A stretch of DNA of 64,000 nt from Candidatus Binatia bacterium (GTDB taxonomy: Bacteria; Desulfobacterota; Binatia; UBA9968), in the NCBI GenBank assembly GCA_036004365.1, contig DASYRN010000045.1:7637-71636 (forward strand). The letters run 5' to 3'. Shown here piece after piece: positions 20,156 to 58,636 of this stretch. The translations under genes were made by a program, and so were the position numbers. Position 1 is the stretch's first letter, and each line of letters begins with the position of its first letter. The notes under the pieces were generated by a model, which saw only the letters and a list, made by a program, of their open reading frames with translations, was not told the DNA's origin and made no database searches.

Positions 20156-20794
20156 TCACAGTTTCGGAATCCGCAGGGTCTTACTAATCATGGCCGAACC
20201 GCTCACGAGATAGAGCAAGGAGAACGGGTGCCACTGCAGGGAGCCGATTTCGAAGACACCGAGTGGCAGATCGTCGCCGACGCGATCCATATGGAAGCAG
20301 AAAGCGAGCACAATAACGAGCACTAAACTGGAGGGAATTGGCGTTCCCTCGAAGTACTTTACTTTACCACCAAGGTCGGAAAATTCAGCCGCGGTGATGT
20401 TATACCGCGCTAGGCGGCTGATCCCGCAAACCACAAAGAATAAGAGGATAGGGACGTCTAGGCCACCGCGCATCCCCAATCCATAGGCGAGTGCCGTGGG
20501 TGCCACCCCGAAGCTCACAACATCCGCTAGCGAGTCGAGCTCCCCGCCGAAGCATGAATGCTTGTTGCGCCACCGGGCAACCCTGCCATCGGCCACATCC
20601 AATGCAAGAGCGAGCGGGAACAGCCCGACAGCCAAATAAACGCGCCAGCGGTCGGGCGTCACCAAGTAACTCATGATGGCAAAAATCGCCGCGGTTCCCA
20701 CGGCGCCGTTGCCAAGCGTGAGCAGATCCGCCACGTGATAACTGCGCAGCATGGAGAAGTGGACAGGCTTTTTTGGCGAAATGTCATGGTCCAT
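20156..20794 (-). CDS. pssA: CDP-diacylglycerol--serine O-phosphatidyltransferase (CDP-alcohol phosphatidyltransferase family)
   Basis: DGRVAR...GGELDSLADVVSFGVAP = D-G-x2-A-R...G-x3-D-x3-D motif. Confidence 0.8.
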   Translation of the reverse strand: MDHDISPKKPVHFSMLRSYHVADLLTLGNGAVGTAAIFAIMSYLVTPDRWRVYLAVGLFPLALALDVADGRVARWRNKHSCFGGELDSLADVVSFGVAPTALAYGLGMRGGLDVPILLFFVVCGISRLARYNITAAEFSDLGGKVKYFEGTPIPSSLVLVIVLAFCFHMDRVGDDLPLGVFEIGSLQWHPFSLLYLVSGSAMISKTLRIPKL

Positions 20795-21190: not shown

Positions 21191-21509
21191 AACCGATATT
21201 GTGTGGGGTAAAAATTCCTTTGTCAAAGGGGATTCGCCTAGCAAGAACCGCGGAATCAGCCATTAACGATCGCGCTGAATACGGCTGACATTTGTTGAGA
21301 ATTCTTACGCATTGGCCAGAATTGTCATTTTGGACGATCTTCGTTCCATTTAAACCACTATGAGTGCGATTCTTAACTTCACCCAAAAGACCGCAAATCC
21401 TTTAAAAAACCGCGTCTTGTGTTGCTAAGCTAAAGATTGGCATGGATTGTGCTACATCTTTTCCGCTCTTGTGGGGGGTCGAAAGAGTAAAGCAGACCTC
21501 GAAATTTTA

Positions 21510-22118
21510 ATGGAAACAATCATCGCCTGCAAAACGTGCGGCCTGGTGCAGCGCATGGAGGAAGTCCAGTCGGACATAGCGGCGGAGTGTTGTCGCTGTG
21601 GGTCGATCATCGGCAAGCTCAACGTCAACAGCCTCGCACGCACGGCAGCGTTCTCGCTAGCCGCGCTGATTCTTTACGTACCGGCCAATATCTATCCGAT
21701 TCTCCATATGAATTATTACGGCGTGTATTCCGAAAGCACTGTTTGGGACGGCTGCGTGAAACTCTTTCGGGACGGCCAGTGGCTGGTGGCCGTGATCGTT
21801 TTTCTCGCCAGTATTTTGATTCCACTTTTAAAACTGCTCGGGCTTTTCTATTTGGTCGTCAGCGCGAAATTCAAATCCGCGCGTCAGCAGCAGGAACGGA
21901 CTTGGATTTACAAGACCATCGAAGTGATCGGTCCATGGGCAATGCTCGACGTCTTCCTCCTCGCGGTGCTCGTGGCGTTGGTCAAGCTGCAGCAGATCGC
22001 TACCGTCCTCCCTGGTCGGGGGCTCTTGGCGTTCACCGCCATGGTGGTGTTGACTATTTTGGCTTCGGCCAGTTTTGACCCGAGGTTGATTTGGAACGAA
22101 ACGGATGAAGAGTCATGA
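21510..22118 (+). CDS. PqiA-family (paraquat-inducible protein A) membrane protein, single-repeat form
   Basis: CxxC x12 CxxC zinc-ribbon N-terminus followed by the PqiA-type TM segment YPILHMNYYG; followed by an MCE gene. Confidence 0.75.
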   Translation: METIIACKTCGLVQRMEEVQSDIAAECCRCGSIIGKLNVNSLARTAAFSLAALILYVPANIYPILHMNYYGVYSESTVWDGCVKLFRDGQWLVAVIVFLASILIPLLKLLGLFYLVVSAKFKSARQQQERTWIYKTIEVIGPWAMLDVFLLAVLVALVKLQQIATVLPGRGLLAFTAMVVLTILASASFDPRLIWNETDEES

Positions 22119-23032
22119 GCGATTTGCAAAAAAATGCTGAAACCACCGAAGAGTTGCCCAAGGCAAAGGTCAAGATAAAGAGATGGAACTTTCCCGTCGT
22201 CTGGATTGTTCCCGTGATTGCCGCCATTGTTACAGGCTATCTTGTTTACGATCGCGTGCAGGAGTTTGGTCCGAAGATCACGATCAGGTTCAAGAACGGC
22301 AGCGGCCTTAAGATCGGCCAAACACCAATTAAGTATCGCGGCGTGCAGATTGGCGAAGTGACGGCGGTTGAATTGAGCGACGACCAGCAGAACGTGCTGG
22401 TGAAGGTACGACTGCGCCGCTCGGCGGCTTCCATTGCCCGGGAAGGAGCGGTTTTCTGGATCGTGCGTCCCGAAATGGGACTTTCAAACATCGCTGCCTT
22501 GGGGACGGTCATTACCGGACCGGAGATTGCGGTATTGCCGGGCACTGGCAAGGACCAAGCAGAATTTGTGGGTCTGGAGAGTTCGCCGGTGGTAGTAGAA
22601 GGTAATGAGCTGAAGATCGTTCTGGTCTCCGGCCGTGCCGGGTCATTGATAGCGAGTTCGCCGGTTTACTATCGGGGCGTCGAGGTAGGCACCATCCAAG
22701 ATATTCAGCTCAACAACGACGCCCGCACGGTGAACATCCACGTGTTCATCAAGCAGCGGTATGCGAACCTGGTCCGGAGCAGCTCGAAGTTTTGGAATGT
22801 AAGTGGCGTGGATGTGAGCATCGGCTTGTTCCGCGGCATGGAAATCAATATGGAATCGCTGAGATCGCTGGCGGTCGGGGGAATCGCCTTTGCCACCCCG
22901 AACGATCCAAAAGGCAAGCCGGCGAAGGACGGGATGGTATTTCCCCTTCACGACAAATCGAATAAGGAATGGTTGGAGTGGGCGCCGAAGATACCGATTC
23001 CACGGGAGAAACAGTTAGAGAAGTCGAGATAA
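22115..23032 (+). CDS. MCE-family (MlaD/PqiB-like) protein
   Basis: N-terminal TM anchor then MCE domain IRFKNGSGLKIGQTPIKYRGVQIGEV; overlaps the PqiA stop. Confidence 0.8.
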   Translation: MSDLQKNAETTEELPKAKVKIKRWNFPVVWIVPVIAAIVTGYLVYDRVQEFGPKITIRFKNGSGLKIGQTPIKYRGVQIGEVTAVELSDDQQNVLVKVRLRRSAASIAREGAVFWIVRPEMGLSNIAALGTVITGPEIAVLPGTGKDQAEFVGLESSPVVVEGNELKIVLVSGRAGSLIASSPVYYRGVEVGTIQDIQLNNDARTVNIHVFIKQRYANLVRSSSKFWNVSGVDVSIGLFRGMEINMESLRSLAVGGIAFATPNDPKGKPAKDGMVFPLHDKSNKEWLEWAPKIPIPREKQLEKSR

Positions 23033-28639: not shown

Positions 28640-28870
28640 AGCTTCGAAAAGCGCCACGATCGTCTTCGTGGAACGTGATCGTGAACAAGAACTGATGCTG
28701 TTATCACTTTTACGATTGCGCAAGTGCGCAAATGAGAAAATGTCCCAAGGCGCGAGCCTTGAGGTATGAGGACAAAAGGTGAGGATGATTCAGGAGGAAC
28801 GATAGCGGAACAAGGGAAAACGGCGGGGAGAAGAGGCTGGAGAGACCGGATAATTTTTTCTACGAGGAAG

Positions 28871-29686
28871 ATGGCGGCAACAAACCGCACCCGGAGAATT
28901 AAGGGAGTGGTTCGGGTCTGCGGGCTGTTCTTCCTGTACGATCTACTTGCTGTTTCCCCCGGTTTTTCCTGGCATGACAAAGGCCATCGCGTTGTGGCGA
29001 TCATCGCCCAGGCGAATCTCACCCCGGAGGCCAAAAAACGGATTCAGGAGATAGTACCTTCAGGCACCACTCTCGCCGACGCAGCCGTCTGGCCGGACTA
29101 CGAAGGGAGAAAAGTGGGAGATTTGGATCCGCTCCACTACGTCAGTATTTCCGACGGCGCCAACGGCTACGATCAAGCGCGTGACTGTCCGGAGAAAAAC
29201 TGTATGGTTGAAGCACTCAAGTGGTTTTCATCGAACATCGCCGACGAGAATGCCCCGACCGTCATGAGACGAATCGCTCTGCGGTATGTCGCGCATCTGG
29301 TCGGTGACCTGCACCAGCCGCTGCATGCGGGCAGGGCAACGGATCGAGGCGGCACGGATATCACGGTGACGTATAGAAGACAGACGACCAACCTGCACTT
29401 CTTTTGGGATAAAGACTTAGTGGAGATGGAAGAAGGAAACGCAGAGGAGGTAGCTGAGCGGCTTGGGGCGAGCCTTACTGAAGAGGAACGTCTTAAATGG
29501 CGGGCGGGCGACCCGAAACAATGGACTGATGAGTCGCTCGTGCTTGCAAGATCCTATGCGTACCCTATAGGGGGATCCTTTGAGCTTTCTGACGACTACG
29601 TAGAAAGGGCCCGACCGATTGTGCGAGTAAGGCTTGTTCAGGCTGGGATAAGATTAGCATGGTTGCTGAACATGGCTTTCAAATAG
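28871..29686 (+). CDS. secreted S1/P1-family nuclease
   Basis: WHDKGH N-terminus after the signal peptide; HYV..D...; HLVGDLHQPLH zinc-ligand motif; GAGGAAG Shine-Dalgarno sequence. Confidence 0.8.
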   Translation: MAATNRTRRIKGVVRVCGLFFLYDLLAVSPGFSWHDKGHRVVAIIAQANLTPEAKKRIQEIVPSGTTLADAAVWPDYEGRKVGDLDPLHYVSISDGANGYDQARDCPEKNCMVEALKWFSSNIADENAPTVMRRIALRYVAHLVGDLHQPLHAGRATDRGGTDITVTYRRQTTNLHFFWDKDLVEMEEGNAEEVAERLGASLTEEERLKWRAGDPKQWTDESLVLARSYAYPIGGSFELSDDYVERARPIVRVRLVQAGIRLAWLLNMAFK

Positions 29687-29693
29687 GATTGTT

Positions 29694-30071
29694 ATGAAAC
29701 CGCACCTTGTGTCAGGGCTAGGGCTCTTGCTAGGGGTTCTTGCCGCAAAGAGCGCACCCGCCGCGATGTATTGCGGCGACACACTGATAGACAAAGGGAT
29801 GACGAAGCTGGACGTCATCTCAAAGTGTGGCCAGCCTGATTTACGGGAAGTGACCTCGCTAGTTTTCCAGGTAAGGGAGGTCTGGCACTATAACTGCGGC
29901 GAGGGCAGGCTGAACAGGAGCCTTGTCTTTGAGGGCGAGACGCTTGTATCGGTCCAGGAAAGCAAAGTTACGGCAGCGGCCCGGAGAAGTGCAAATAAAA
30001 CGGAACTAATAGCAAGGAAGCACGAGGCAGCGATACGCTTCATTCCCGGCCGGGATCGAGCTCAATGCTGA
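29694..30071 (+). CDS. DUF2845-like small secreted protein
   Basis: Signal peptide then MYCGDTLIDKGMTKLDV..KCGQPD...VW.Y pattern. Confidence 0.5.
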   Translation: MKPHLVSGLGLLLGVLAAKSAPAAMYCGDTLIDKGMTKLDVISKCGQPDLREVTSLVFQVREVWHYNCGEGRLNRSLVFEGETLVSVQESKVTAAARRSANKTELIARKHEAAIRFIPGRDRAQC

Positions 30072-30321
30072 TGAGCTCGTAGCGTTCCGAAGAATACTCT
30101 CCCCGTTGTCTCAGGCTTTCTCGACGTTGGCGGTCGAGCACGGCGTGGTCCTGGTGTATCCGCTGCTGTTGTTCGTCCTGCCTCTGTTCTCGAACCTGGA
30201 GAAGTTCACCGACGGGAGCACCAGCCCCTCGCTCAAGGCTACTACAACCGATAGGAGTCATTAGAAGAGTTACCGCAATCAACTCTATAGAGAGGTTCTT
30301 CGCGTAACCAAACCGAATCAT
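30040..30321 (-). CDS. small Q/R-rich lipoprotein (putative)
   Basis: LLMTPIGCSS lipobox-like signal; convergent 32-nt overlap with the preceding gene lowers confidence. Confidence 0.35.
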   Translation of the reverse strand: MIRFGYAKNLSIELIAVTLLMTPIGCSSLERGAGAPVGELLQVREQRQDEQQQRIHQDHAVLDRQRRESLRQRGEYSSERYELISIELDPGRE

Positions 30322-30676
30322 AATCCTCCTCCTCGAGATTTTGGTGCAAGGGCTTTTGCCCGAGACAGCTGACGCGATGCAAGCGATATACCAAGGGCCA
30401 GAATAATTAAACCGTGGATTGTTAAAGGGATTGGAAGTTCGGCTCTTCTGACACGGTCCCTAATTGTTATGGAAAGGCCTAAATTGTACCGTCAAGTAAC
30501 TTGATCGTTGTCTAAGAGGAATGGGATCCTCGTCTTGATCTTGGATTCTTGAGCCAGGTCACCCGGTCTGCCATGTGTATCTTGGCGATCCAAGAAAGGG
30601 ACGAGGCAAGAGGTGATAGGCGATAGTTTTTAGTCGCTCTCGCAACTATTGTATATTATAACATGGCTCTCGCGTT

Positions 30677-30690
30677 TTGAGAATTCAAAA
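30677..30690. promoter_or_regulatory. degenerate F4 copy 3 (TTGAGAATTCAAAA)
   Basis: CGCGTTTTGAGAATTCAAAAATGTAAAAAC; left half intact, right half mutated. Confidence 0.3.
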
Positions 30691-30746
30691 ATGTAAAAAC
30701 GAGTTAATGATGGAATCTTGCCCTATACGATTGTAACATTGGATAG

Positions 30747-30893
30747 GACCGAATTGCCGGCTTGATGACTTCCTATGGATACGCGAATATTCTCCACGCC
30801 GGTTTCTGCGCCTTGGAGCTTCTTGAATGGGAAGTCGATCAGGTTTTGGGCGTTGGGCCTTTCACGTCCGCCGAATTGCGCGCCGATCGTTAG
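30747..30893 (+). pseudogene. 3' remnant of a YciI-like gene (decayed paralog of 35809..36117)
   Basis: Translates to DRIAGLMTSYGYANILHAGFCALELLEWEVDQVLGVGPFTSAELRADR*; the full gene ends ERIAGSDPYTKAGFCAFELFEWEVHQVLGVGPFTSAELRAHR*. The last ~50 nt are about 94% identical. Confidence 0.55.
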
Positions 30894-30941
30894 CAGTTGG
30901 AGATTCACATCTTCGGCGGAAGATTTGAGAAGGAGGTATCC

Positions 30942-31031
30942 ATGTTGGCCATTCTTCCCCCGCTGATAATGATTCTTCTCGTAGCTCTTATTTTCTATCT
31001 TGCCTGGTGGGACGCTAACAGACGTAAGTAG
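30942..31031 (+). CDS. 29-aa hydrophobic single-TM peptide (MLAILPPLIMILLVALIFYLAWWDANRRK)
   Basis: Strong AAGGAGGT Shine-Dalgarno sequence 6 nt before the ATG; the same context as the hup (HU) gene; not in the >=60-aa ORF track. Confidence 0.45.
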   Translation: MLAILPPLIMILLVALIFYLAWWDANRRK

Positions 31032-31155
31032 AAGTAAAAAGGCGTTGGGACAGCCATTGTGCGTCGGGCAATTCAATCGGAGCTAACGTTGAGGACGCAA
31101 AGCAGCACAAAGTGGCCGAGTTTATCACCGAAGGTAAGACAAGAAAGGAGAATCT

Positions 31156-31605
31156 ATGCCGAGAGTGACTTCGTTGGGTCATGTAGGCCTTTACGTGGGC
31201 GACATTGAGCGTTCCAAGGCATTTTATCGGGATATCCTTGGCCTGAAGGTGAGCGACGAGAGTCCCAACAGGGGCGCAGTATTCATGACGGCCAAAGACC
31301 GGCTGGAAGAGCACCACGAGCTCCTGCTCATGCCGGGCCGAGAGGATGGCAAAGTCGTCCAGCAAGTTTCTTTCCGCTGTGCCAGCCTCGCCGATATCAA
31401 AGACTTTTACCGAGTTTTTTTGCAGAACAAAATCCCCATCAACCGCATCGTAAGCCACGGCAATGCTATAGGGATCTATTTTCAAGATCCCGACGGAAAC
31501 CAGATCGAAGTTTACTGGCCCACCGGCATCGACTGGCCCCAGCCCTTTGGGAAGCCGGTCGACCTGGCCGTAACCGACGAGGAGATCCTTGCGCAGCTGA
31601 CGTAG
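31156..31605 (+). CDS. VOC-family (glyoxalase / extradiol dioxygenase fold) protein
   Basis: HVGLYVGDIERSKAFYRDILGL; AAGGAG Shine-Dalgarno sequence; the antisense ORF 31015..31485 is judged a shadow. Confidence 0.8.
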   Translation: MPRVTSLGHVGLYVGDIERSKAFYRDILGLKVSDESPNRGAVFMTAKDRLEEHHELLLMPGREDGKVVQQVSFRCASLADIKDFYRVFLQNKIPINRIVSHGNAIGIYFQDPDGNQIEVYWPTGIDWPQPFGKPVDLAVTDEEILAQLT

Positions 31606-31636
31606 CCTGTAAGGCGGGCCTTAAAAAGTAAAAGCA

Positions 31637-32164
31637 ATGTCGAAACGACTGATTTTCCTCCCATGGATGTTGTCTCTACTTCTGCTACCGGCCTGCATCC
31701 ATGGCCTAACGATGCACTCCATGGACGGAGAGACCTTAAGCGGAAAGTATCGTTTCGCGCGCGAAGGCAAAGGATTGATCAAGGTCATCCGATCCGATGG
31801 CGAGGTCTTGACGGGCCATTTTGTGACGGTTGGGCCGAAGGCTTTTGTCGAGAGTTTCAAGAAGGCTTTCGGCAGCGGATCTATCGTTGTCTTCGGTCCC
31901 GATGCCTCCGCTTACGGAAATGCCTTCGGAGGCACCTTTGCAAGTGCGCACGGGACTGCAGGGGCTGCCTATGGCGAGACGTTCAATACCGGCTCCGGTC
32001 AATCCACAACCGTGGTGACCGGGCCGCGTTTTTACTGGACGGCATTCCTTCAGGGCAGTGGAGGAACAACGATGGCATGTTTTTTCATCGGCTCCTCGTA
32101 TACGGGTCACGGATTTGGAAGATGTAAGAGCAACATGGGGAAGGAGTATAGTGTAGAGTTTTAA
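31637..32164 (+). CDS. glycine-rich lipoprotein
   Basis: LLLLPAC lipobox; Gly/Ala/Thr-rich mature region. Confidence 0.55.
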   Translation: MSKRLIFLPWMLSLLLLPACIHGLTMHSMDGETLSGKYRFAREGKGLIKVIRSDGEVLTGHFVTVGPKAFVESFKKAFGSGSIVVFGPDASAYGNAFGGTFASAHGTAGAAYGETFNTGSGQSTTVVTGPRFYWTAFLQGSGGTTMACFFIGSSYTGHGFGRCKSNMGKEYSVEF

Positions 32165-32523
32165 GATCTCTAGTCTTTTTTCAGAGGTCAAAATAAATAG
32201 TAGATGAGCGTGCTCGATCCTGCCATTGTCTCACGTTTGCGTGATTGCGACGAAGAAACAGTGGCCTGTCGGCCCGGATATCTGAGCGGTCGGGGACGGA
32301 TACTCCTCCTGCGTTGTCTCTAACCGAATTTCCGGAGAGTTGTTCATAATTGTCATATTGGACGGTTTCGGTCCACTTACCACGAGCCCTTATTCGACTT
32401 GTGAGCGGGAAATCCTTTTTAAAAACCACATATTGTATTGATAGGCCAAAATAAGGGCCTTTGGCATGAATTATGAATCTTATCCACTATATAGGCCCAT
32501 CTATCTTAAGAGAGCGATCCCTT

Positions 32524-33954
32524 ATGCGAGACGTCGCAATAGCAACCGAGGCAGCATCACTTTCCAAGGAATGTCCTGGATGTGGCGCTCTCCTGGAACT
32601 GACTCTCGAGGCGTGCTGGAAATGCGGCGGAAAAGTCGAACCGGATATTCCCACAGCGCCGTACGAAGAGAAACGACCCTTCAAGCCCTATCTAGACAGA
32701 AGCGCCGACCTTGGAAGAGAGGTCTACGAACGGCTTATCCAAGCCTTTTCAGAAGTGAATCCCCGCGAAAGACCCTGGTGTGGCATAGGGGTTAAAGCTG
32801 ACCTTCTCGCGGTATCACCAAGATCCGTGACAGTCGCGGTGATAAAGGAGCTGAGCGGGGTCAAGAAAGGCCTCGTTCATGTCTCGCAGAATTGGCGGGA
32901 ACCTTGGCAGGTAGAAACCGTCGATAGGGAGAAACATCAGATACGAAGCAATCCTTGCGAGCAGGCGGAGCGGGCGATCAGCGCTGTCAAAAGTAGTCTC
33001 AAGTCTTTTCTCAAGGCCAATGAGCAGGCTGTATTCCCGCGCATAAAGTGTTTAATCGTTTTCCCCGATGGATACGACTTTGAAGGGCCAAAGGATTTTT
33101 CCATGCTCGACCACGACGGGGTGATCACGCTGAGTCTACTAAACTTTCGTGATTTACCGGATGCGATATTACGACCGACGGACCACGAAGGACTGGATTC
33201 CCGGCAGTACAGGAAATGGATTGAAGAACTTCTAAGGAGCAACGATGAGTCCACCCTCGGGACATGGCTTGATCCGGCCTTCGATAAGCCGGAGCCGGAG
33301 CCGCCCAAGAGACAGCTCTGGCGGTTACGTTATCCGCGCCGCCGAAAAGTGCCGGCAAAGGAAGAGGAACTCTCTTGGTCAAATAGTCCGCGAAAGAGAT
33401 CGGTCCAGGCGAAATTGAAGGGGACTCGACTCAAATTTACCGTGACGGTTATCACGGGTATGCTCGTTGGAATGGTCGGATGGCAAATGTATAGTGTTGG
33501 GGAACATACCGCGCCGCCTCCACGCGCGGAAACTACCCCTGAAGTCACTCAAGCGGTGCCACCCCAAGATGTCCCGTTGTCAACGGAACTCGAGAAGGAG
33601 GAGATATTGCCTCCGCCGCAGCCAGTAGAATCCCGCGAACCGCAGGCGCCTATAGCGCCGAAAGAGGATCAACCCATCAAAGGCGCGAATAAATCTGAGG
33701 TCACCCGCACTCAGGCTCCTGGCGATTTAGAGCTCAAGCGGCAGAAGGTGGAACTCAAGATCCATGATGCTATTCTCCGTCGCGCGATCACCGGTGTGAC
33801 GGTTTACTTCGCCGGGGACACGGCTTACCTCCGCGGCCAGGTCGAGACCGAAAACCAAAAATCTGCTGCCGAAAAGGCCGCGAGGAGCGTCCCGGGGGTT
33901 AAGGAAATCCGCAATTCAATTGAGGTCAATCCCCCATCCCCTGCGGATGGCTAG
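32524..33954 (+). CDS. zinc-ribbon - NERD (nuclease-related domain) - transmembrane - Pro-rich linker - BON domain protein
   Basis: CPGCG...CWKCGG ribbon; NERD pattern DLLAVSPRSVTVAVIKEL...NP.EQ...I; TM segment LKFTVTVITGMLVGMVGW; C-terminal VYFAGDTAYLRGQVETENQKSAAEKAARSVPGVKEIRNSIEV BON. Confidence 0.7.
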   Translation: MRDVAIATEAASLSKECPGCGALLELTLEACWKCGGKVEPDIPTAPYEEKRPFKPYLDRSADLGREVYERLIQAFSEVNPRERPWCGIGVKADLLAVSPRSVTVAVIKELSGVKKGLVHVSQNWREPWQVETVDREKHQIRSNPCEQAERAISAVKSSLKSFLKANEQAVFPRIKCLIVFPDGYDFEGPKDFSMLDHDGVITLSLLNFRDLPDAILRPTDHEGLDSRQYRKWIEELLRSNDESTLGTWLDPAFDKPEPEPPKRQLWRLRYPRRRKVPAKEEELSWSNSPRKRSVQAKLKGTRLKFTVTVITGMLVGMVGWQMYSVGEHTAPPPRAETTPEVTQAVPPQDVPLSTELEKEEILPPPQPVESREPQAPIAPKEDQPIKGANKSEVTRTQAPGDLELKRQKVELKIHDAILRRAITGVTVYFAGDTAYLRGQVETENQKSAAEKAARSVPGVKEIRNSIEVNPPSPADG

Positions 33955-34030
33955 CCTGATGACGGCCAGATAACACTTCGCTTTTCCTTCAGATCAAAGT
34001 AAAGAGCAGCGAGCGTCCGCTGACTGTCCC

Positions 34031-34486
34031 TCAAGTTTGATTACTAATGAACTGAAATATCTTTGCAGCGGCGTCAGCGCCGGTCGTCGTTGTCGTGTCG
34101 ATTCTTATAGTCGGATTGTTCGGCGGCTCCATTCGATGGAACATGATGTGGAGTGCTTTTTCGGATATATTCGGCTGCCGTTCTCGATTGCGCCGAAGAG
34201 CGACCTCTAAGGGGCAATCAAGAAAAACGGTTACAACTCTCTCCGCTTGTGCCCGCGCTTTGACCTGGCACCGCCATTCCTTTTTGTAAAACGTGGCGTC
34301 AAAAATTAGGAAATCCGTTCTCCTCCGATCGGGCGCCAGCGCATTGAAAAACTTCCGGTAGACCGGCGGTCTTAGCCTGTCGGAACTCAAGATCTGAACG
34401 CTGCCTAATTCAGCGAGGCGCTCGGCCAGCTTTTCTGCTATCGTACTCTTACCCGATCCGGGAATGCCGCAAAAGAGAATAATCAA
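34031..34486 (-). CDS. small P-loop kinase of the AAA_33 / polynucleotide-kinase-like family
   Basis: Walker A GIPGSGKST at residues 7-15; downstream SSDRLR and ALRRNRERQ resemble the T4 Pnk kinase lid (LVKRNSKRG); TTG start; 151 aa. Confidence 0.7.
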   Translation of the reverse strand: MIILFCGIPGSGKSTIAEKLAERLAELGSVQILSSDRLRPPVYRKFFNALAPDRRRTDFLIFDATFYKKEWRCQVKARAQAERVVTVFLDCPLEVALRRNRERQPNISEKALHIMFHRMEPPNNPTIRIDTTTTTGADAAAKIFQFISNQT

Positions 34487-34514
34487 TAAGATATGTTCGT
34501 GACGCCGCGCTGGG

Positions 34515-34772
34515 CTATCGGCGGGGTCGGGCGAGCCTCATCGCTTGCTCAATGGTGGGAATGATCTCGGGGCAACATTGCCTGGCGATTTCGAGAATGA
34601 TGCGCGCTTGGTTCTGGTCACAGGGGATCGTGTAGCCTTTAAAAAATACGCCCTCAAACGAATGATCAATTCGCGTGGCCTTGGCAATGGCCTCATAGGC
34701 GGGAGACTCAACGGGAATTCGACTCCGCAGTCGGTCAAAGTGTGGAGGAGCGACCTTAATGAATATCTCCAT
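34515..34772 (-). CDS. hypothetical 85-aa alpha/beta protein, kinase partner
   Basis: Ends 28 nt upstream of the kinase; no recognised family; conserved-looking cysteines CDQ...QCCPE. Confidence 0.5.
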   Translation of the reverse strand: MEIFIKVAPPHFDRLRSRIPVESPAYEAIAKATRIDHSFEGVFFKGYTIPCDQNQARIILEIARQCCPEIIPTIEQAMRLARPRR

Positions 34773-34894
34773 GGCGCCACCTCACCAAAAATACGTTAGG
34801 ATGCTCAATTCAACCTACCAAATAGGGCCGTTATTTCAATGCGGGTCCGTCAACCTTCACCGGTCGAGTTTCCCAAAACCCGCTCGTCAAGGCA

Positions 34895-35350
34895 TCACAC
34901 TCTAGTAGCAAAACGGATCGCATCGATATTAGGTAAGCAAGAGCGGCATTGGGTGACGTGTGCGACGGCGGCGTCCAAATCCCAGCCGCAGCACCAAGAG
35001 AGATACGCGACCGCGACCGTAGGAGATCGGCCAGCGCCGGCGGAGCAATGGAGATAGACTGTATGGCCAGACTCCATGAGCTCGTTTAGCGCGGACACGC
35101 ACGCCGGGAGCTTGTCTTGCAGATCGACTGGGTCCAAGTCGCGCACTGGGACACGACAAGGGTGAATGCGGCAGATTTGGTAGTGGGTTGCCAGCGAATT
35201 CCAATCCAGGCTAAAGTGCTGCATGTCCTCGTCGGTTTGTAGATTGAGCACAGCCGAAATGGCGGCATCGCGCTTTAATATCTCGATGTCACCAGCGCTT
35301 CCTGGGTAGGAACCGACAAAGAGTTTGGAAAGAATCTGATGGTAATCCAT
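34895..35350 (-). CDS. dual-specificity (VHR-like, CX5R) protein phosphatase
   Basis: HCSAGAGRSPTVAVAYL P-loop with catalytic C and R; general acid D upstream; 151 aa. Confidence 0.8.
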   Translation of the reverse strand: MDYHQILSKLFVGSYPGSAGDIEILKRDAAISAVLNLQTDEDMQHFSLDWNSLATHYQICRIHPCRVPVRDLDPVDLQDKLPACVSALNELMESGHTVYLHCSAGAGRSPTVAVAYLSWCCGWDLDAAVAHVTQCRSCLPNIDAIRFATRV

Positions 35351-35444
35351 AGCTTGGGTAGGTCGTAAGGAGTGAGGCGTAAACAGGAGAACCCCTTGCA
35401 CGTTTTACGTTTCACTAGCCATGACTATCATCCTGACGTTACGG

Positions 35445-35666
35445 TCACGGACTCTCTTTGACGGCGAGAAGTGAGGCCAGCGGGCACAACACTTTGTATT
35501 CGGCTTTGCCTGTTTTTTCTTTCCAGCTGGCGGCGCCTGGAGCTCCGTCAATGAATTCGTAAGCATCCACGCCGAATGTGCTTTTACCGTCAATCAGCAG
35601 GACTTCGTGCCATCCGTCGGCAAGCAGCACATAACGCACTTTCTCTACATTGAGCTTCAGAGCCAT
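35445..35666 (-). CDS. hypothetical 73-aa beta-rich protein, first gene of the phosphatase/kinase operon
   Basis: AAGGAGG Shine-Dalgarno sequence; family not recognised. Confidence 0.55.
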   Translation of the reverse strand: MALKLNVEKVRYVLLADGWHEVLLIDGKSTFGVDAYEFIDGAPGAASWKEKTGKAEYKVLCPLASLLAVKESP

Positions 35667-35808
35667 GTTTTGCCTCCTTTCCTCAGGATCCGAACGTTGC
35701 GTTCGAGGTTCCTTGTCGTGATATTTTATCAGGATTCAAGGCTCGCTCCAGGGGTAGGCCCGCTAAGGGGTAAAGGATGCAATAAACTATAAAAGCTAGG
35801 AGGACAGC

Positions 35809-36117
35809 ATGTGGTATCTGATCCATCGTAAGCCCATACGACCGCGTGAGGAATGGACCGTGAGTCTCGACGAGCATCTTGTCTGGATGAAACAGCAGCA
35901 CGAGGCCGGCCGGATCCTTTTTTCCGGCCCGACCCGGGATCGCACGTTGGGGATTTACGCGATACGCGCCGGCTCCAGGGAAGAAGCCGAGCGGATCGCC
36001 GGCAGCGATCCTTACACGAAGGCCGGTTTCTGCGCTTTCGAGCTTTTTGAGTGGGAGGTGCACCAAGTTTTGGGCGTCGGGCCTTTCACGTCCGCCGAAT
36101 TGCGCGCCCATCGCTAG
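35809..36117 (+). CDS. YciI-like (dimeric alpha/beta barrel) protein
   Basis: 102 aa; YLI..K...R.E... HL.W pattern of the YciI family; AGGAGG Shine-Dalgarno sequence. Confidence 0.75.
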   Translation: MWYLIHRKPIRPREEWTVSLDEHLVWMKQQHEAGRILFSGPTRDRTLGIYAIRAGSREEAERIAGSDPYTKAGFCAFELFEWEVHQVLGVGPFTSAELRAHR

Positions 36118-36153
36118 CGGTCTACAAGGAGCTCAGAAGAGCACTTTCACCGT

Positions 36154-36167
36154 TTGAGAATTCTCAA
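36154..36167. promoter_or_regulatory. perfect palindrome TTGAGAATTCTCAA (F4 copy 4)
   Basis: CACCGTTTGAGAATTCTCAAGAGTCAAAAGG, about 37 nt after the YciI-like stop and between convergent genes. Confidence 0.4.
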
Positions 36168-36200
36168 GAGTCAAAAGGATTTGGGAACAAGAAAAGGACT

Positions 36201-36938
36201 TTAAGAAGGGTTCTTTCTTGTGGGAGGAACGATTCTAGCCTGTTCGATGGCGGGTTTGGCCGCTTCCTTATGAGGGCGAGCTAGCTGGTCTGGAGCGTCG
36301 GTCGTTTTAGGCTGACCTTCTATTGTTTGTCTTAGAATTTCCTCTTGCAGCGAACCTTTATTGTTCCCAGCTACGGGCTTTCCCGTCTCAATGTCGTCAT
36401 TGATGAAAACTGCGGCTGCAAAGACAGTCGTCCAGAGCCCATCTTTATTGCCAACGGCAGACTGAGTGATATTGGTAGTACGGACGATCTTGCCGGACAT
36501 CTTGAAAAGTTGCTCGCGCTCGTCCCAATCCAATTCAGGATCAAATTCAATCCCCAGGGTAGTCGCGAGCATGCTGGCGGCGAGGTCTTCCGCATATTCT
36601 CCCGCTCGTTCATCGGTTTCTCCAAACGAATGATGCTCGGAAAGATAACCGTGCATGGAAGAATCCGCGGGGATCGCCAAGCCGATAGAAGCTGCGATGA
36701 GACGATTTGGCTCGTTGTTACTTTCTCGATCATAAACGGCAAATACAATCTCTCCGGGCCGTAAGAGCTTTAATCCTTCCTCCTTGGAGATAATCTTGCA
36801 GGCTGGGGGATAGATGCTGGAGACGAGAACCAAATTGCAGTGGGCCAAGCCGGCAACCCGCAGCGCCATCTCAAAGGAGGCCAACCGTTCCTTATGAACG
36901 CCGACTCCTTTGGTGAAAAAAACTTTCTTAGGAACCAT
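36201..36938 (-). CDS. pdaD: pyruvoyl-dependent arginine decarboxylase (PdaD) with ~70-aa low-complexity C-terminal extension
   Basis: [42 protein letters not shown] matches the PdaD N-terminus including the self-cleavage serine region. Confidence 0.7.
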
Positions 36939-57697: not shown

Positions 57698-58636
57698 TTA
57701 GACCATGGGGAGCACTTCCTGTGCCAACCAGTCCAATCGTTTTAAAGTCTCTGCCGGACCAGGACTCCGGACATCGAAAATAAGGCAATTCACTCCAGCC
57801 TTTTGATAGTCTCTCACGTCGGATGCGACCTGCCCCGCGCTGCCGATGAATCTTCTTCGTCGCCCCGCCTGAGCTTCGACTTCCCGATCAAACAACGAGG
57901 CTTTGAAAGCTACGCGGATTTCGCTCGGATTCCTGCCTGCCGCTTGAGCGTACTCAGCGAGTGTTTCCAACTTTCTTTCAAGATCTGCCGGTTCCAGAGG
58001 TACGGTCGGCACGCCTCCTATGGGATGCCATCCATCCCCTAACTCAGCGGCGCGGCGCAGAGCCCGGTTGCTATGCCCTCCGATCCAAATCGGAATGTGA
58101 GGCTTTTGCGCTGGCTTCGGTAGAAATGCCAAGTCGGAAAACTTGCAATAAGTGCCCTTAAAGGTGGGATTCTCCTTTGTCCAGAGCTCCTTAAAAGCTT
58201 TAATGTATTCGTCCGTAACACGGCCACGATCCTCAAACGGAGGAGCTCCAACAAGCAGGAATTCTTCTTTCATCCATCCGACTCCCAATCCCAGAATCAC
58301 TCGGCCGCCTGAAAGGAAGTCCAGGGTTGAAAGCATCTTGGCGACAACGACAGGAGGGCGATAAGGGGCAATCATGACGCTGGCGACGAAGGAGATGCGC
58401 TGAGTGGCGCTGGCAAGAAACGCCATGACCGTCATTTGATCGAGATGATGACCTTTTCCGGGATACTTCTTGTCTACAGTATAAGGATAAGGGGAAGCGA
58501 TGTTTCTCGGGATGACGATGTGATCAGCGACGGTTACACAGAAAAAATCCAATTCCTCCGCGCGCTTAACGAAATGGATCAGATCTTCGGGTTTTACTCG
58601 GGGGTCGGACACAGCTAGGTGAAGCCCATAGTCCAT
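57698..58636 (-). CDS. LLM-class F420-dependent oxidoreductase
   Basis: 312 aa; ...GGRVILGLGVGW...IWIGG... pattern. Confidence 0.8.
   Translation of the reverse strand: MDYGLHLAVSDPRVKPEDLIHFVKRAEELDFFCVTVADHIVIPRNIASPYPYTVDKKYPGKGHHLDQMTVMAFLASATQRISFVASVMIAPYRPPVVVAKMLSTLDFLSGGRVILGLGVGWMKEEFLLVGAPPFEDRGRVTDEYIKAFKELWTKENPTFKGTYCKFSDLAFLPKPAQKPHIPIWIGGHSNRALRRAAELGDGWHPIGGVPTVPLEPADLERKLETLAEYAQAAGRNPSEIRVAFKASLFDREVEAQAGRRRRFIGSAGQVASDVRDYQKAGVNCLIFDVRSPGPAETLKRLDWLAQEVLPMV

What the first reader, a model, noticed from the sequence alone, without database searches (positions are those of the whole stretch)
32524..33954. Unusual architecture: zinc ribbon - NERD nuclease-related domain - TM helix - Pro/Glu-rich linker - BON domain
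NERD domains are usually soluble or helicase/kinase-linked and are often found in defence contexts. Here the NERD domain is preceded by a CxxC...CxxC ribbon and followed by one TM segment and a C-terminal BON domain, which would be periplasmic or membrane-associated. A nuclease-related domain tethered to the membrane with an envelope-facing BON domain suggests an envelope-stress or phage-entry sensor coupled to a nuclease. It lies immediately upstream (convergent) of the phosphatase/kinase operon.
Basis: partly seen in the sequence, partly recalled or inferred. Interest (0 to 1): 0.5.

Follow-up and report, generated by a model that had tools for sequence, protein, structure and literature searches.

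The report
Membrane-spanning pseudo-nuclease with periplasmic BON domain
This is a real but very rare membrane protein of uncultured soil bacteria: a nuclease-like domain that has lost its usual catalytic residues sits inside the cell and is joined to a lipid-binding-type BON domain outside, so it looks like a cell-envelope maintenance factor and not an anti-phage nuclease.

Summary
The CDS is 32524-33954 (+). It encodes a CxxC-x10-CxxC ribbon, a divergent NERD-like domain with a PD-(D/E)xK fold, an invariant juxtamembrane motif, one TM helix, a Pro/Glu-rich spacer and a C-terminal BON domain.

The nuclease-effector reading is not supported.
- The canonical NERD catalytic residues vary freely across the family. 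Only 3 of 54 members keep D...[D/E]xK; the window protein has D...V-x-K. Other residues are invariant.
- No defence model matches the protein.
- Ten different gene contexts share no conserved partner. The kinase/phosphatase neighbours recur only in the 91%-identical relative.

The family is tiny: 49 clusters among 5.8 billion, mostly named as Binatia or 'Deltaproteobacteria' MAGs. The whole architecture persists in distant members.

The new finding is a roughly 160-nt upstream DNA module, conserved across loci. It holds a dyad (ATTGTY-N6-GACAAT) about 100-115 nt upstream of a sigma-54-type -24/-12 element. A second copy in this window precedes a pqiA-MCE lipid-transport operon.

Best reading: an envelope-homeostasis factor anchored in the inner membrane, with a periplasm-spanning BON tether and a non-catalytic cytoplasmic docking domain. 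It is a new variant of known kinds and of moderate interest.

The parts
32339..32490 (+). Conserved upstream regulatory module of about 160 nt. In this copy the dyad right arm and the -12 element are degenerate.
   Evidence: An nhmmer profile of the module gives E 2.8e-40 here. It also finds the module upstream of the orthologous gene in L001, L002/3/10, L004, L007/8, L009, L011, L012, L017 and L023. No Rfam hit and no conserved RNA structure.
32349..32366 (+). Dyad ATTGTC-N6-GACGGT (family consensus ATTGTY-N6-GACAAT), a candidate activator (enhancer-binding protein) site.
   Evidence: The arms match 5-6 of 6 in most loci and 4 of 6 here. The centre lies 98-116 nt upstream of the -24 GG.
32462..32477 (+). 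Sigma-54-type -24/-12 element, TGGCATGAATTATGAA. The -24 TGGCA is intact; the -12 GC has been lost through a 3-nt deletion shared with L001.
   Evidence: Eight other loci have TGGCAYR-N4-GTGCK with GG-N10-GC spacing. About 0.2 exact matches are expected by chance in the loci searched (own estimate); nine were found, eight of them directly upstream of this gene.
32524..33954 (+). CDS of the ribbon/NERD-like/TM/BON protein (476 aa from Met18; stop codon at 33952-33954).
   Evidence: There are 49 homologous clusters at 40-91% identity over nearly the full length.
32572..32625 (+). CxxC-x10-CxxC zinc ribbon (C34, C37, C48, C51), an optional N-terminal accessory.
   Evidence: It is sub-threshold in Pfam, conserved in many members and absent or degenerate in others.
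32695..33237 (+). Divergent NERD-like domain with a PD-(D/E)xK fold (residues 75-255). Positions equivalent to the canonical catalytic residues are D110, V123 and K125.
33238..33285 (+). Nearly invariant juxtamembrane motif, SNDESTLGTWLDPAFD (family consensus D-D-S-x-x-G-T-W-L-D-P).
   Evidence: T264 and L266 are 58/58; W265 and D267 are 57/58. The motif is kept in distant members. AF2 confidence is low here.
33286..33435 (+). Basic cytoplasmic pre-TM segment (17 K/R in the 51 residues 271-321 that precede the TM helix).
   Evidence: Its length is 42-57 aa in the core family.
33436..33498 (+). Single TM helix with a small-xxx-small pattern (TGMLVGMVGW); predicted N-in, C-out.
33499..33717 (+). 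Pro/Glu-rich disordered periplasmic spacer (73 aa).
   Evidence: The sequence varies but the length is conserved: 71-111 aa in the core family (nearly all 71-98; median 84 over all 54 members measured) and 171-183 aa in the SH3-bearing branch.
33718..33933 (+). C-terminal BON domain, including its leading helix.
21312..21469 (+). Second copy of the same regulatory module, with an intact -24/-12 element TGGCATGGATTGTGCT at 21438-21453.
   Evidence: nhmmer E 3e-45. Alignment. Exact pattern match.
21510..23032 (+). pqiA (to 22118) and an MCE/MlaD-domain gene (22115-23032), the operon driven by the second module copy.
   Evidence: Pfam PqiA 183 bits and MlaD 99 bits. ORFs.

Best explanation
**What it is.** A lineage-specific, bitopic inner-membrane protein that works in cell-envelope homeostasis and not as a nuclease.

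**Layout.**
- The N-terminal half lies in the cytoplasm. It comprises an optional zinc ribbon, a NERD-derived PD-(D/E)xK domain that has lost the canonical catalytic set, an invariant DDSxxGTWLDP motif and a basic juxtamembrane stretch.
- One TM helix carries small-xxx-small motifs.
- A Pro/Glu-rich spacer of conserved length (about 84 aa, comparable to the TonB spacer) projects a single BON domain across the periplasm.

**Proposed mechanism.**
1. By analogy with DolP, OsmY and BonA, the BON domain binds envelope phospholipid, or oligomerises, at or near the outer membrane.
2. The cytoplasmic pseudo-nuclease serves as a docking or ligand-binding module.
3. The protein therefore links, or reports between, the two sides of the inner membrane.

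**Regulation.** The gene is monocistronic. In most members it is preceded by a conserved enhancer-type dyad plus a sigma-54-type promoter. The same module precedes a pqiA-MCE intermembrane lipid-transport operon in this genome, which places both in one envelope regulon.

**Shown here by computation:** the architecture, the loss of catalytic-residue conservation, the spacer length, the absence of conserved neighbours and the shared upstream module.

**Inferred:** the topology, lipid binding by the BON domain, the docking role, sigma-54 dependence and co-regulation.
For: - **Architecture is conserved to deep divergence.** Distant members P0053, P0055, P0056, P0057 and P0059 keep the order NERD-like domain, TWLDP motif, basic stretch, TM, spacer, BON.
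- **Catalytic columns vary.**
  - Position 110 is G 30 / D 23.
  - Position 123 is D 26 / V 13 / A 8 / other.
  - Position 125 is K 23 / R 17 / other.
  - The full D...[DE]xK motif occurs in 3 of 54 members.
  - Canonical NERD proteins keep D and K in 19/19 and E in at least 90%.
- **Other positions are invariant:** P101 and W102 52/52; W145 55/55; R247, W249, T264 and L266 58/58.
- **The TM helix and positive-inside rule hold family-wide, and spacer length is conserved**.
- **The BON fold matches OsmY, DolP and BonA**. DolP's BON domain binds anionic phospholipid (PMC7806268).
- **Ten neighbourhoods share no partner and contain no defence genes**. PADLOC is negative.
- **The upstream module is conserved across loci and duplicated before pqiA-MCE**. 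The comparative study PMC3162934 concludes in its title that sigma-54 is a central controller of the bacterial exterior (seen; the paper was not read).
- **Precedent.** SmdA shows that a membrane-anchored NERD lacking the most conserved NERD residues can act in envelope and division biology (PMC9040797).
Against: - No experimental data exist for any member.
- Loss of the canonical motif does not prove inactivity. Minimal or atypical PD-(D/E)xK cores can still cleave, for example the Upx N-terminal domain (PMC13099982). The family also keeps other conserved polar residues that could form a different site: R100, R142, E166 (core clade), K192, D199, K207, D258 and D267.
- Lipid binding by this BON domain is analogy only.
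- The sigma-54 assignment rests on consensus plus conservation. No rpoN or GAFTGA-motif activator was found in the window or loci.
- In this window's own copy the -12 GC and half of the dyad are lost, so the co-regulation may not hold in this particular genome.
- The module-pqiA link is seen once only. The metagenome scan found no further example.
Confidence: 0.5

Rival explanations
1. First reader's model. The protein is an envelope-tethered active nuclease: an anti-phage or envelope-stress effector whose BON domain senses envelope damage or phage entry and switches on DNA or RNA cleavage by the NERD domain.
For: - The window protein retains D110 and K125, and three relatives (P0026, P0029, P0051) keep a full D...DxK.
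- The fold is PD-(D/E)xK and resembles defence nucleases such as Upx, Can2 and McrC.
- NERD can be a genuine nuclease in defence, as in ZwsA (bioRxiv 10.64898/2026.04.06.716636).
- Atypical catalytic cores exist (PMC13099982).
Against: - Catalytic columns vary freely while non-catalytic columns are invariant.
- Distant members carry hydrophobic residues at the K position (I, V, F).
- PADLOC and PHROGs give no hit.
- Neighbours are metabolic or housekeeping genes in all ten contexts.
- The gene sits in a conserved orthologous setting with its own conserved promoter module, not in a defence island.
Confidence: 0.1
2. The protein is a membrane-tethered nucleic-acid-binding regulator or nucleoid anchor (ToxR/CadC-like logic). 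The zinc ribbon, the inactive nuclease fold and the basic juxtamembrane stretch bind DNA or RNA at the membrane, controlled by the periplasmic BON sensor.
For: - Inactive restriction-endonuclease-like folds and zinc ribbons are common nucleic-acid-binding modules (general knowledge).
- The pre-TM segment holds 17 K/R in the 51 residues 271-321.
- Conserved Arg and Lys residues are present: R100, R142, K192, K207 and R247.
- The gene is monocistronic and has no partner gene.
Against: - No recognised DNA-binding family matches.
- The zinc ribbon is dispensable in many members.
- No target genes can be proposed.
- The invariant residues are mostly aromatic (W102, W141, W145, W249, W265), which suggests a hydrophobic pocket or interface more than a DNA-binding surface.
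Confidence: 0.2
3. The protein is a divisome or morphogenesis scaffold. It would combine the roles known for SmdA (a membrane-anchored degenerate NERD needed for septum placement) and for the BON lipoproteins DolP and BonA (recruited to the division site).
For: - SmdA precedent (PMC9040797).
- The DolP and BonA structures are the best fold matches to the C-terminal domain.
- DolP localises to the division site through phospholipid binding (PMC7806268).
Against: - No division or cell-wall genes are linked in any neighbourhood.
- The family is far too rare and too narrowly distributed for a core division factor.
- Homology to SmdA specifically was not testable here.
Confidence: 0.12

Closest known systems
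SmdA of Staphylococcus aureus (membrane-anchored NERD-like protein; PMC9040797)
   Same: It is a single-pass membrane protein. Its cytoplasmic NERD-like domain lacks several of the most conserved NERD residues. The gene is monocistronic. Its function lies in envelope and division biology, not DNA cleavage.
   Different: SmdA has its TM helix at the N-terminus, with no extracytoplasmic domain, no BON and no zinc ribbon. It is essential and conserved in the Staphylaceae-level family Staphylococcaceae, whereas this family is rare and found in Binatia-like MAGs. Direct homology beyond the shared Pfam family was not tested because no SmdA sequence was available.
Canonical NERD proteins (pXO1-01 type, Pfam PF08378) and the NERD RNA endonuclease ZwsA
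   Same: The fold is PD-(D/E)xK. The motifs align in register: (D)hhhh, the GvxVxE-x-K region, NP..Q and the final beta-strand F. Some canonical NERD proteins also carry zinc fingers and a membrane segment.
   Different: Canonical members keep GxxGE, D, ExK, W, Q and H invariant. In ZwsA, alanine substitutions at E535, D567, E580 and K582 impaired defence. This family does not conserve these residues; the window protein has V at the E position. A profile of this family recovers no classical NERD among 1.84 billion representatives.
BON envelope proteins OsmY, DolP (YraP) and BonA
   Different: Those proteins are secreted or are outer-membrane lipoproteins, with one or two BON domains and no cytoplasmic part. 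Here a single BON domain hangs from an inner-membrane anchor on a long spacer and is fused to a cytoplasmic domain. A review of BON-domain proteins lists no nuclease-type fusion (PMC11747388).
TonB, and the type III secretion proteins YscD/CdsD (architectural analogues)
   Different: There is no sequence relationship to TonB, no ExbBD or secretion-system genes lie nearby, and the cytoplasmic domain is NERD-like rather than FHA.
Sigma-54 promoters with upstream activator sites
   Same: Most loci have TGGCAYR-N4-GTGCK with GG-N10-GC spacing, a dyad about 100-115 nt upstream and an A/T-rich tract between them.
   Different: This is untested. The -12 T is G (GTGC rather than TTGC). The window's own copy lacks the -12 GC. 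No activator gene was identified.

Membership tests
NERD (Pfam PF08378) | Score at or above the Pfam gathering threshold | tested here: met
   23.5 bits against 22.1, which is marginal. Sixteen of 36 family members hit at E<=0.01, best 3.5e-6, always on profile positions about 36-111.
NERD (Pfam PF08378) | Profile-profile similarity to classical (pXO1-01-type) NERD proteins | tested here: inconclusive
   hhalign of A2 against A3 gives E 0.34 and probability 0.2%, yet 100 columns align in register with the D, ExK, NP..Q and F motifs. A family profile finds no classical NERD among 1.84e9 representatives.
NERD (Pfam PF08378) | Restriction-endonuclease-like (PD-(D/E)xK) alpha-beta-beta-beta-alpha-beta core | tested here: met
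Catalytically active NERD / PD-(D/E)xK nuclease | Conserved E (helix 1), D (strand 2) and (D/E)xK (strand 3) | tested here: not met
   The window protein has D110, V123 and K125. Across the family, position 110 is G 30 / D 23, position 123 is D 26 / V 13 / A 8, and position 125 is K 23 / R 17 / other. The helix-1 Glu is not conserved. Canonical NERD keeps D and K in 19/19.
BON domain (Pfam PF04972) | Score above the gathering threshold and an alpha-beta-beta-alpha-beta fold | tested here: met
BON domain (Pfam PF04972) | Extracytoplasmic location and phospholipid or envelope binding | not testable with these tools
   The location is inferred from the TM helix and the K/R bias. Binding is analogy to DolP (PMC7806268).
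Known anti-phage defence systems | Match to a defence-protein model, or location in a defence island | tested here: not met
   PADLOC gives 0 hits for the protein. Among neighbours, only P-loop-level matches for the kinase were found. PHROGs gives 0 hits. Ten neighbourhoods contain metabolic genes only.
Zinc ribbon | Four Cys in CxxC...CxxC, conserved, with a Pfam match | tested here: inconclusive
   The pattern is present (C34, C37, C48, C51) and recurs in distant members, but Pfam scores are below threshold (16-20 bits). Several members lack it or have lost Cys residues.
Sigma-54-dependent promoter | -24 GG and -12 GC separated by 10 nt within TGGCAC-N5-TTGCW, with an upstream activator site | tested here: inconclusive
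   The feature is met in L002, L004, L005, L007, L009, L011, L012 and L017 and in the pqiA copy at 21438-21453. It is not met in the window's own copy, where the -12 GC is deleted. Function was not tested, and no rpoN or activator was found.
SmdA family | Sequence homology to S. aureus SmdA; N-terminal TM helix | not tested
   No SmdA sequence was available in the tools. The topology differs: here the TM helix follows the NERD-like domain.

The most novel reading that the evidence does not exclude
The protein is a previously undescribed one-component trans-envelope signalling device. A periplasmic BON domain on a ruler-like spacer would read outer-membrane or phospholipid status. It would transmit this through a glycine-zipper TM helix to a cytoplasmic pseudo-nuclease/zinc-ribbon module, which then binds a nucleic acid or protein target. 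The device would be wired into a sigma-54 envelope regulon together with a Pqi-type lipid transporter. A variant of this reading is that a rewired, non-canonical active site makes it an envelope-gated nuclease.
Probability: 0.18. Interest if true: 0.6.

Novelty: new variant of a known kind. Interest (0 to 1): 0.37.

Why it matters
If the reading is right, the family is a second, independent case after SmdA of a NERD domain recruited to the membrane for a non-nuclease envelope role. It would also be the first case in which a BON domain is tethered to the inner membrane and coupled to a cytoplasmic domain. That would give a concrete handle on how BON domains are used across the periplasm.

The conserved dyad plus sigma-54-type module, shared with a pqiA-MCE operon, is a directly testable lead to an envelope and lipid-homeostasis regulon in Binatota, a phylum with no cultured model.

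It is also a caution for defence-gene mining. A Pfam 'nuclease-related' label at the gathering threshold does not imply a nuclease.

The impact is limited because the family is extremely rare and known only from metagenomes.

Tried and rejected
**Searches that were unavailable or found nothing**
- The afdb50 fold library was not available.
- PDB sequence searches with the family profile and with a canonical NERD profile found nothing usable.
- hhalign against a single pXO1-01 sequence was uninformative.
- Rfam found nothing in 30000-36500 at E<=1 or in the whole window at gathering score. There are no tRNAs.
- The simple promoter and terminator scan was at chance level.

**Models and structures that did not help**
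- RNAalifold on the upstream module gave -7 kcal/mol and no covariation. A riboregulator or sRNA reading was therefore rejected in favour of a DNA regulatory module.

**Hypotheses considered and rejected**
- An anti-sigma factor reading (N-terminal zinc domain, TM helix, periplasmic domain) was rejected. There is no zf-HC2 match, and no neighbourhood annotation lists a sigma-factor domain.
- A functional link to the kinase/phosphatase operon was rejected because the adjacency occurs only in L001.
- The window contains no paralogue of the protein.

**Searches for the regulatory partners and regulon**
- No sigma-54 activator (GAFTGA motif) or RpoN box was found in the window or in any locus.
- The metagenome pattern scan for more module copies returned 8 stretches. 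Six were chance matches. The two real ones both precede the same gene, so the regulon could not be extended.
- A search with the distant branch found only 4 proteins.
Full report

The mechanical ORF runs 32473..33954 (+) and encodes 493 aa.
- The closest homolog, P0001 (91% identity), begins at that Met.
- A GAGAG stretch lies 11-15 nt upstream of it.
- The DNA from 32339 to 32490 is a non-coding element conserved across loci. The ATGs at 32466 and 32473 therefore sit in promoter DNA. This also explains the odd 'MNCESYPLY' N-terminus of P0004, which looks like a mis-called start.

The domain evidence is as follows.
- **BON.** Pfam gives 43.5 bits against a gathering score of 27, at residues 429-487.
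- **NERD.** Pfam gives 23.5 bits against 22.1, at residues 109-198.
- **Zinc ribbon.** The matches to C34xxC37-x10-C48xxC51 are sub-threshold.
- **Family-wide.** Across 36 aligned relatives, BON is hit in 36 and NERD in 16 at E<=0.01.
- **Structure.** An AlphaFold2 model built on the family alignment has a confident core (residues 79-255, pLDDT about 70-92) and a confident BON domain (416-485). Residues 256-415 are disordered.

The hydrophobic segment at 322-342 is only moderately hydrophobic in the window protein (Kyte-Doolittle 1.36). It is clearly a TM helix across the family.
- The median hydropathy is 1.73, and up to 2.4 in distant members.
- The N-side flank averages 4.4 K/R and the C-side flank 1.7, which predicts N-in, C-out.
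- The spacer that follows is 21% Pro and 18% Asp+Glu.

The ORF is a real gene, with 49 homologous clusters at 40-91% identity over nearly the full length.

**2. What is the NERD-like domain?**

I fetched the founding NERD protein, pXO1-01, and built an alignment of 19 classical relatives. In those proteins the D of QIDH, the ETK(N) motif, NP..QN..H and several Gly and Trp residues are invariant or nearly so.

A profile-profile comparison with the present family is statistically weak (E 0.34). It nevertheless aligns 100 columns in register.
- D68 aligns with position 110.
- E81-x-K83 aligns with positions 123-125.
- NP..Q aligns with N160-P161..Q164.
- The last-strand F aligns with F197.

At those positions 54 family members show free variation.
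- Position 110 is G 30 / D 23.
- Position 123 is D 26 / V 13 / A 8 / E 2 / K 2 / H 2 / L 1.
- Position 125 is K 23 / R 17, plus F, I, V, E, G, H, Q and P.
- Only P0026, P0029 and P0051 have a complete D...DxK.
- The window protein has D110...V123-I-K125.
- Distant members have D..E-T-I, E..A-I-V, G..H-P-F, D..K-I-I and D..L-V-F.

By contrast, P101, W102, W145, R247, W249, T264 and L266 are invariant, and R100, F197, P198, D199, W265 and D267 nearly so.

Alanine substitutions of the corresponding E, D, E and K in the NERD RNA endonuclease ZwsA impaired its anti-phage activity, and K582A served as the inactive control (bioRxiv 10.64898/2026.04.06.716636).

The most economical reading is a NERD-derived pseudo-nuclease whose selection is on something other than phosphodiester cleavage. 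One caveat applies. Minimal or atypical PD-(D/E)xK sites can be active, as in the Upx N-terminal domain (PMC13099982). The family also keeps other conserved polar residues.

**3. How widespread is it, and is the fusion stable?**

A profile of the NERD-like region alone found only 20 proteins at E<=1e-3 among 1.84 billion cluster representatives. None was a classical NERD protein.

The distant hits (P0053, P0055, P0056, P0057, P0059, P0062, P0063) all keep the same order: an optional zinc ribbon, the NERD-like domain, DDS..TWLDP, a basic stretch, a TM helix, a Pro-rich spacer and BON. Two of them (P0056, P0059) have a long insert before BON; Pfam detects a sub-threshold SH3-like match in P0059 (20 bits against 27).

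A further search with that distant branch found four proteins. Among 185,579 species-representative genomes, only five MAGs carry the gene. They are named Candidatus Binatia, 'Deltaproteobacteria bacterium' and uncultured Syntrophobacteraceae (taxonomy).

The fusion is therefore old, stable and confined to a narrow, uncultured lineage.

Spacer length is strikingly conserved while its sequence is not: 71-111 aa in the core family (nearly all 71-98; median 84 over all 54 members measured) and 171-183 aa in the two long-insert members. This is what is expected of a distance-setting tether such as the TonB spacer.

**4. Genomic context**

Ten different contexts were examined: the window, L001, L002/3, L004, L005, L006, L007/8, L015, L016, L017 and the P0187 contig. 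Only L001, the 91% relative, shares the window's neighbours.

Elsewhere the gene sits between peptide ABC transporters, an M20 peptidase, UbiD, GlnE, NMT1-type binding proteins, an RND pump, a glycogen-synthase-like gene and others.

The convergent P-loop kinase (KTI12/AAA_33) and DSP phosphatase are confirmed, but they are not conserved partners. PADLOC and PHROGs give nothing for the protein, and only P-loop-level noise for the kinase.

The gene is a stand-alone, monocistronic chromosomal gene in non-defence surroundings.

**5. The unexpected part: a conserved upstream module shared with pqiA-MCE**

Although the neighbours differ, about 160 nt upstream of the gene are conserved at the DNA level. 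This holds among loci whose proteins are only 45-65% identical.

An nhmmer profile of this module finds it in front of the gene in L001, L002/3/10, L004, L007/8, L009, L011, L012, L017 and L023, with E values from 1e-52 to 4e-5.

The module has three elements.
- **A dyad**, ATTGTY-N6-GACAAT, with 5-6 of 6 arm matches in most copies.
- **An A/T-rich tract**, AAATCC.CTTTAAAAACC.
- **A -24/-12 element** whose -24 GG lies 98-116 nt downstream of the dyad centre: TGGCAYR-N4-GTGCK with exact GG-N10-GC spacing. This is the sigma-54 -24/-12 consensus with one deviation.

The strict pattern is expected about 0.2 times by chance in the loci searched (my estimate from base frequencies). It occurs nine times, eight of them directly upstream of this gene.

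The module shows no conserved RNA structure and has no Rfam match. A sigma-70-type promoter is not detected there.

The window holds a second, better-preserved copy of the whole module at 21312-21469, with E 3e-45 and an intact TGGCATGGATTGTGCT at 21438-21453. It lies immediately upstream of pqiA (Pfam 183 bits) and an MCE/MlaD-domain gene (99 bits). A CDP-alcohol phosphatidyltransferase gene lies divergently beside it.

Pqi/MCE systems move phospholipid between the two membranes of diderm bacteria (established knowledge). Their presence also argues that this organism has an outer membrane.

Two transcription units sharing one enhancer-promoter module is good evidence for a common regulon. It ties the gene to envelope lipid homeostasis independently of the BON annotation. 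This agrees with the comparative study PMC3162934, whose title (the paper itself was not read) concludes that sigma-54 is a central controller of the bacterial exterior.

Caveats:
- In the window and in L001, the copy in front of the ribbon/NERD-like/BON gene has lost the -12 GC through a 3-nt deletion, part of the dyad, and an 11-nt block.
- No rpoN or GAFTGA-motif activator is present in any sequence held.
- The distant branch lacks the module.
- A metagenome scan found no further examples in front of other genes.

**6. Mechanism**

I commit to the following, at about 0.5 confidence. The protein is an envelope-homeostasis factor anchored in the inner membrane.
1. The BON domain is held at a fixed reach across the periplasm. 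It engages phospholipid or the outer-membrane face, or oligomerises, as DolP (PMC7806268), OsmY and BonA do.
2. The TM helix carries small-xxx-small motifs (TGMLVGMVGW) that would allow self-association.
3. The cytoplasmic pseudo-nuclease, the invariant TWLDP motif and the basic stretch form a docking or ligand-binding module.

The architecture, the residue-conservation pattern, the spacer length, the context and the shared regulatory module are shown computationally. Topology, lipid binding, the docking role and sigma-54 dependence are inferred.

Rivals:
- A membrane-tethered nucleic-acid-binding regulator or nucleoid anchor (0.2).
- A divisome or morphogenesis scaffold in the manner of SmdA plus DolP (0.12).

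**7. Comparison with known systems and novelty**

The closest functional precedent is S. aureus SmdA. It is a monocistronic, membrane-anchored protein whose NERD-like domain lacks the most conserved NERD residues, and it acts in septum placement and cell-wall synthesis (PMC9040797). SmdA has the opposite arrangement: an N-terminal TM helix and no outside domain.

The BON proteins studied so far are secreted or are lipoproteins. A recent review of BON-domain proteins lists no nuclease-type fusion (PMC11747388). No paper in the library mentions NERD and BON domains together.

Membership:
- BON: met.
- NERD: met only at the marginal sequence level and at the fold level.
- Active NERD nuclease: tested and not met.
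- Defence system: tested and not met.

I rate it a new variant of known kinds, namely a degenerate membrane NERD and a BON envelope protein. It is not categorically new.

Interest is moderate (0.37). The fusion and the shared sigma-54-type module are testable leads. The family is very rare, known only from metagenomes, and has no experimental handle yet.

Noticed in passing
window 30798-30897 and 36022-36121 (also L001 2671-2771 and 8229-8329): A 100-nt direct repeat (87% identical) is spaced 5224 nt apart. The second copy is the last 31 codons plus stop of the YCII gene (35809..36117). The first is an orphan YCII 3' fragment. Together they bracket a 5.2-kb block holding glyoxalase, a 175-aa lipoprotein, the gene under study, the kinase, an 85-aa ORF, the phosphatase and most of YCII. 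There is no integrase inside, and GC content matches the flanks. This could be an att-like duplication or a rearrangement scar. It predates the split between the window and L001.
   Followed up: partly
window 32466-32523; protein P0004: The ORF-finder starts at 32466 and 32473 lie in conserved promoter DNA. P0004's N-terminus 'MNCESYPLY' resembles the out-of-frame translation 'MNYESYPLY' of the window. Some database N-termini of this family are therefore probably over-extended gene calls.
   Followed up: partly
window 20156-20794 (-), 21510-23032 (+): A CDP-alcohol phosphatidyltransferase gene lies divergently next to the module-driven pqiA-MCE operon. No pqiC-like gene follows the MCE gene on the same strand. 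PqiA here also begins with a CxxC...CxxC ribbon.
   Followed up: partly
window 34031-35401 (-): This is a three-gene unit: a P-loop kinase (AAA_33/KTI12, with weak PHROG matches to polynucleotide and thymidylate kinases), an 85-aa ORF with no match, and a dual-specificity phosphatase (DSPc, also matching the Tc-R-P and PTP-SAK families). It is present only in the window and L001. Its function was not pursued.
   Followed up: no
window 28766-30071 (+): A secreted-type S1/P1 nuclease gene is followed directly by a DUF2845 gene. The same pair occurs in L001.
   Followed up: no
window 57711-57726 (-): A second exact match to the sigma-54-type pattern (TGGCACAGGAAGTGCT) lies inside the 3' end of a 312-aa ORF on the minus strand (57698..58636; not annotated here). 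About 0.06 exact matches are expected by chance in the window.
   Followed up: no
proteins P0056, P0059 (loci L016 and others): A distant branch of the family lacks the zinc ribbon. It has a 171-183 aa periplasmic region; Pfam gives a sub-threshold SH3_3 match (20 bits against 27) before BON in P0059, and P0056 has a similar sequence there by eye. This branch lacks the upstream module.
   Followed up: partly
alignment A3 (canonical NERD proteins): Most of the classical pXO1-01-type NERD proteins aligned here start with a hydrophobic, TM-like segment. Many also end in a topoisomerase-type C4 zinc finger (PF01396). Membrane association and zinc fingers are therefore common among these NERD proteins.
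   Followed up: partly
protein P0064: A 1282-aa protein made of about 16 near-identical repeats (…SPSDDSIPDMEQPEAD…) scored weakly against the family profile through the DDS motif. It is almost certainly a spurious low-complexity match.
   Followed up: no
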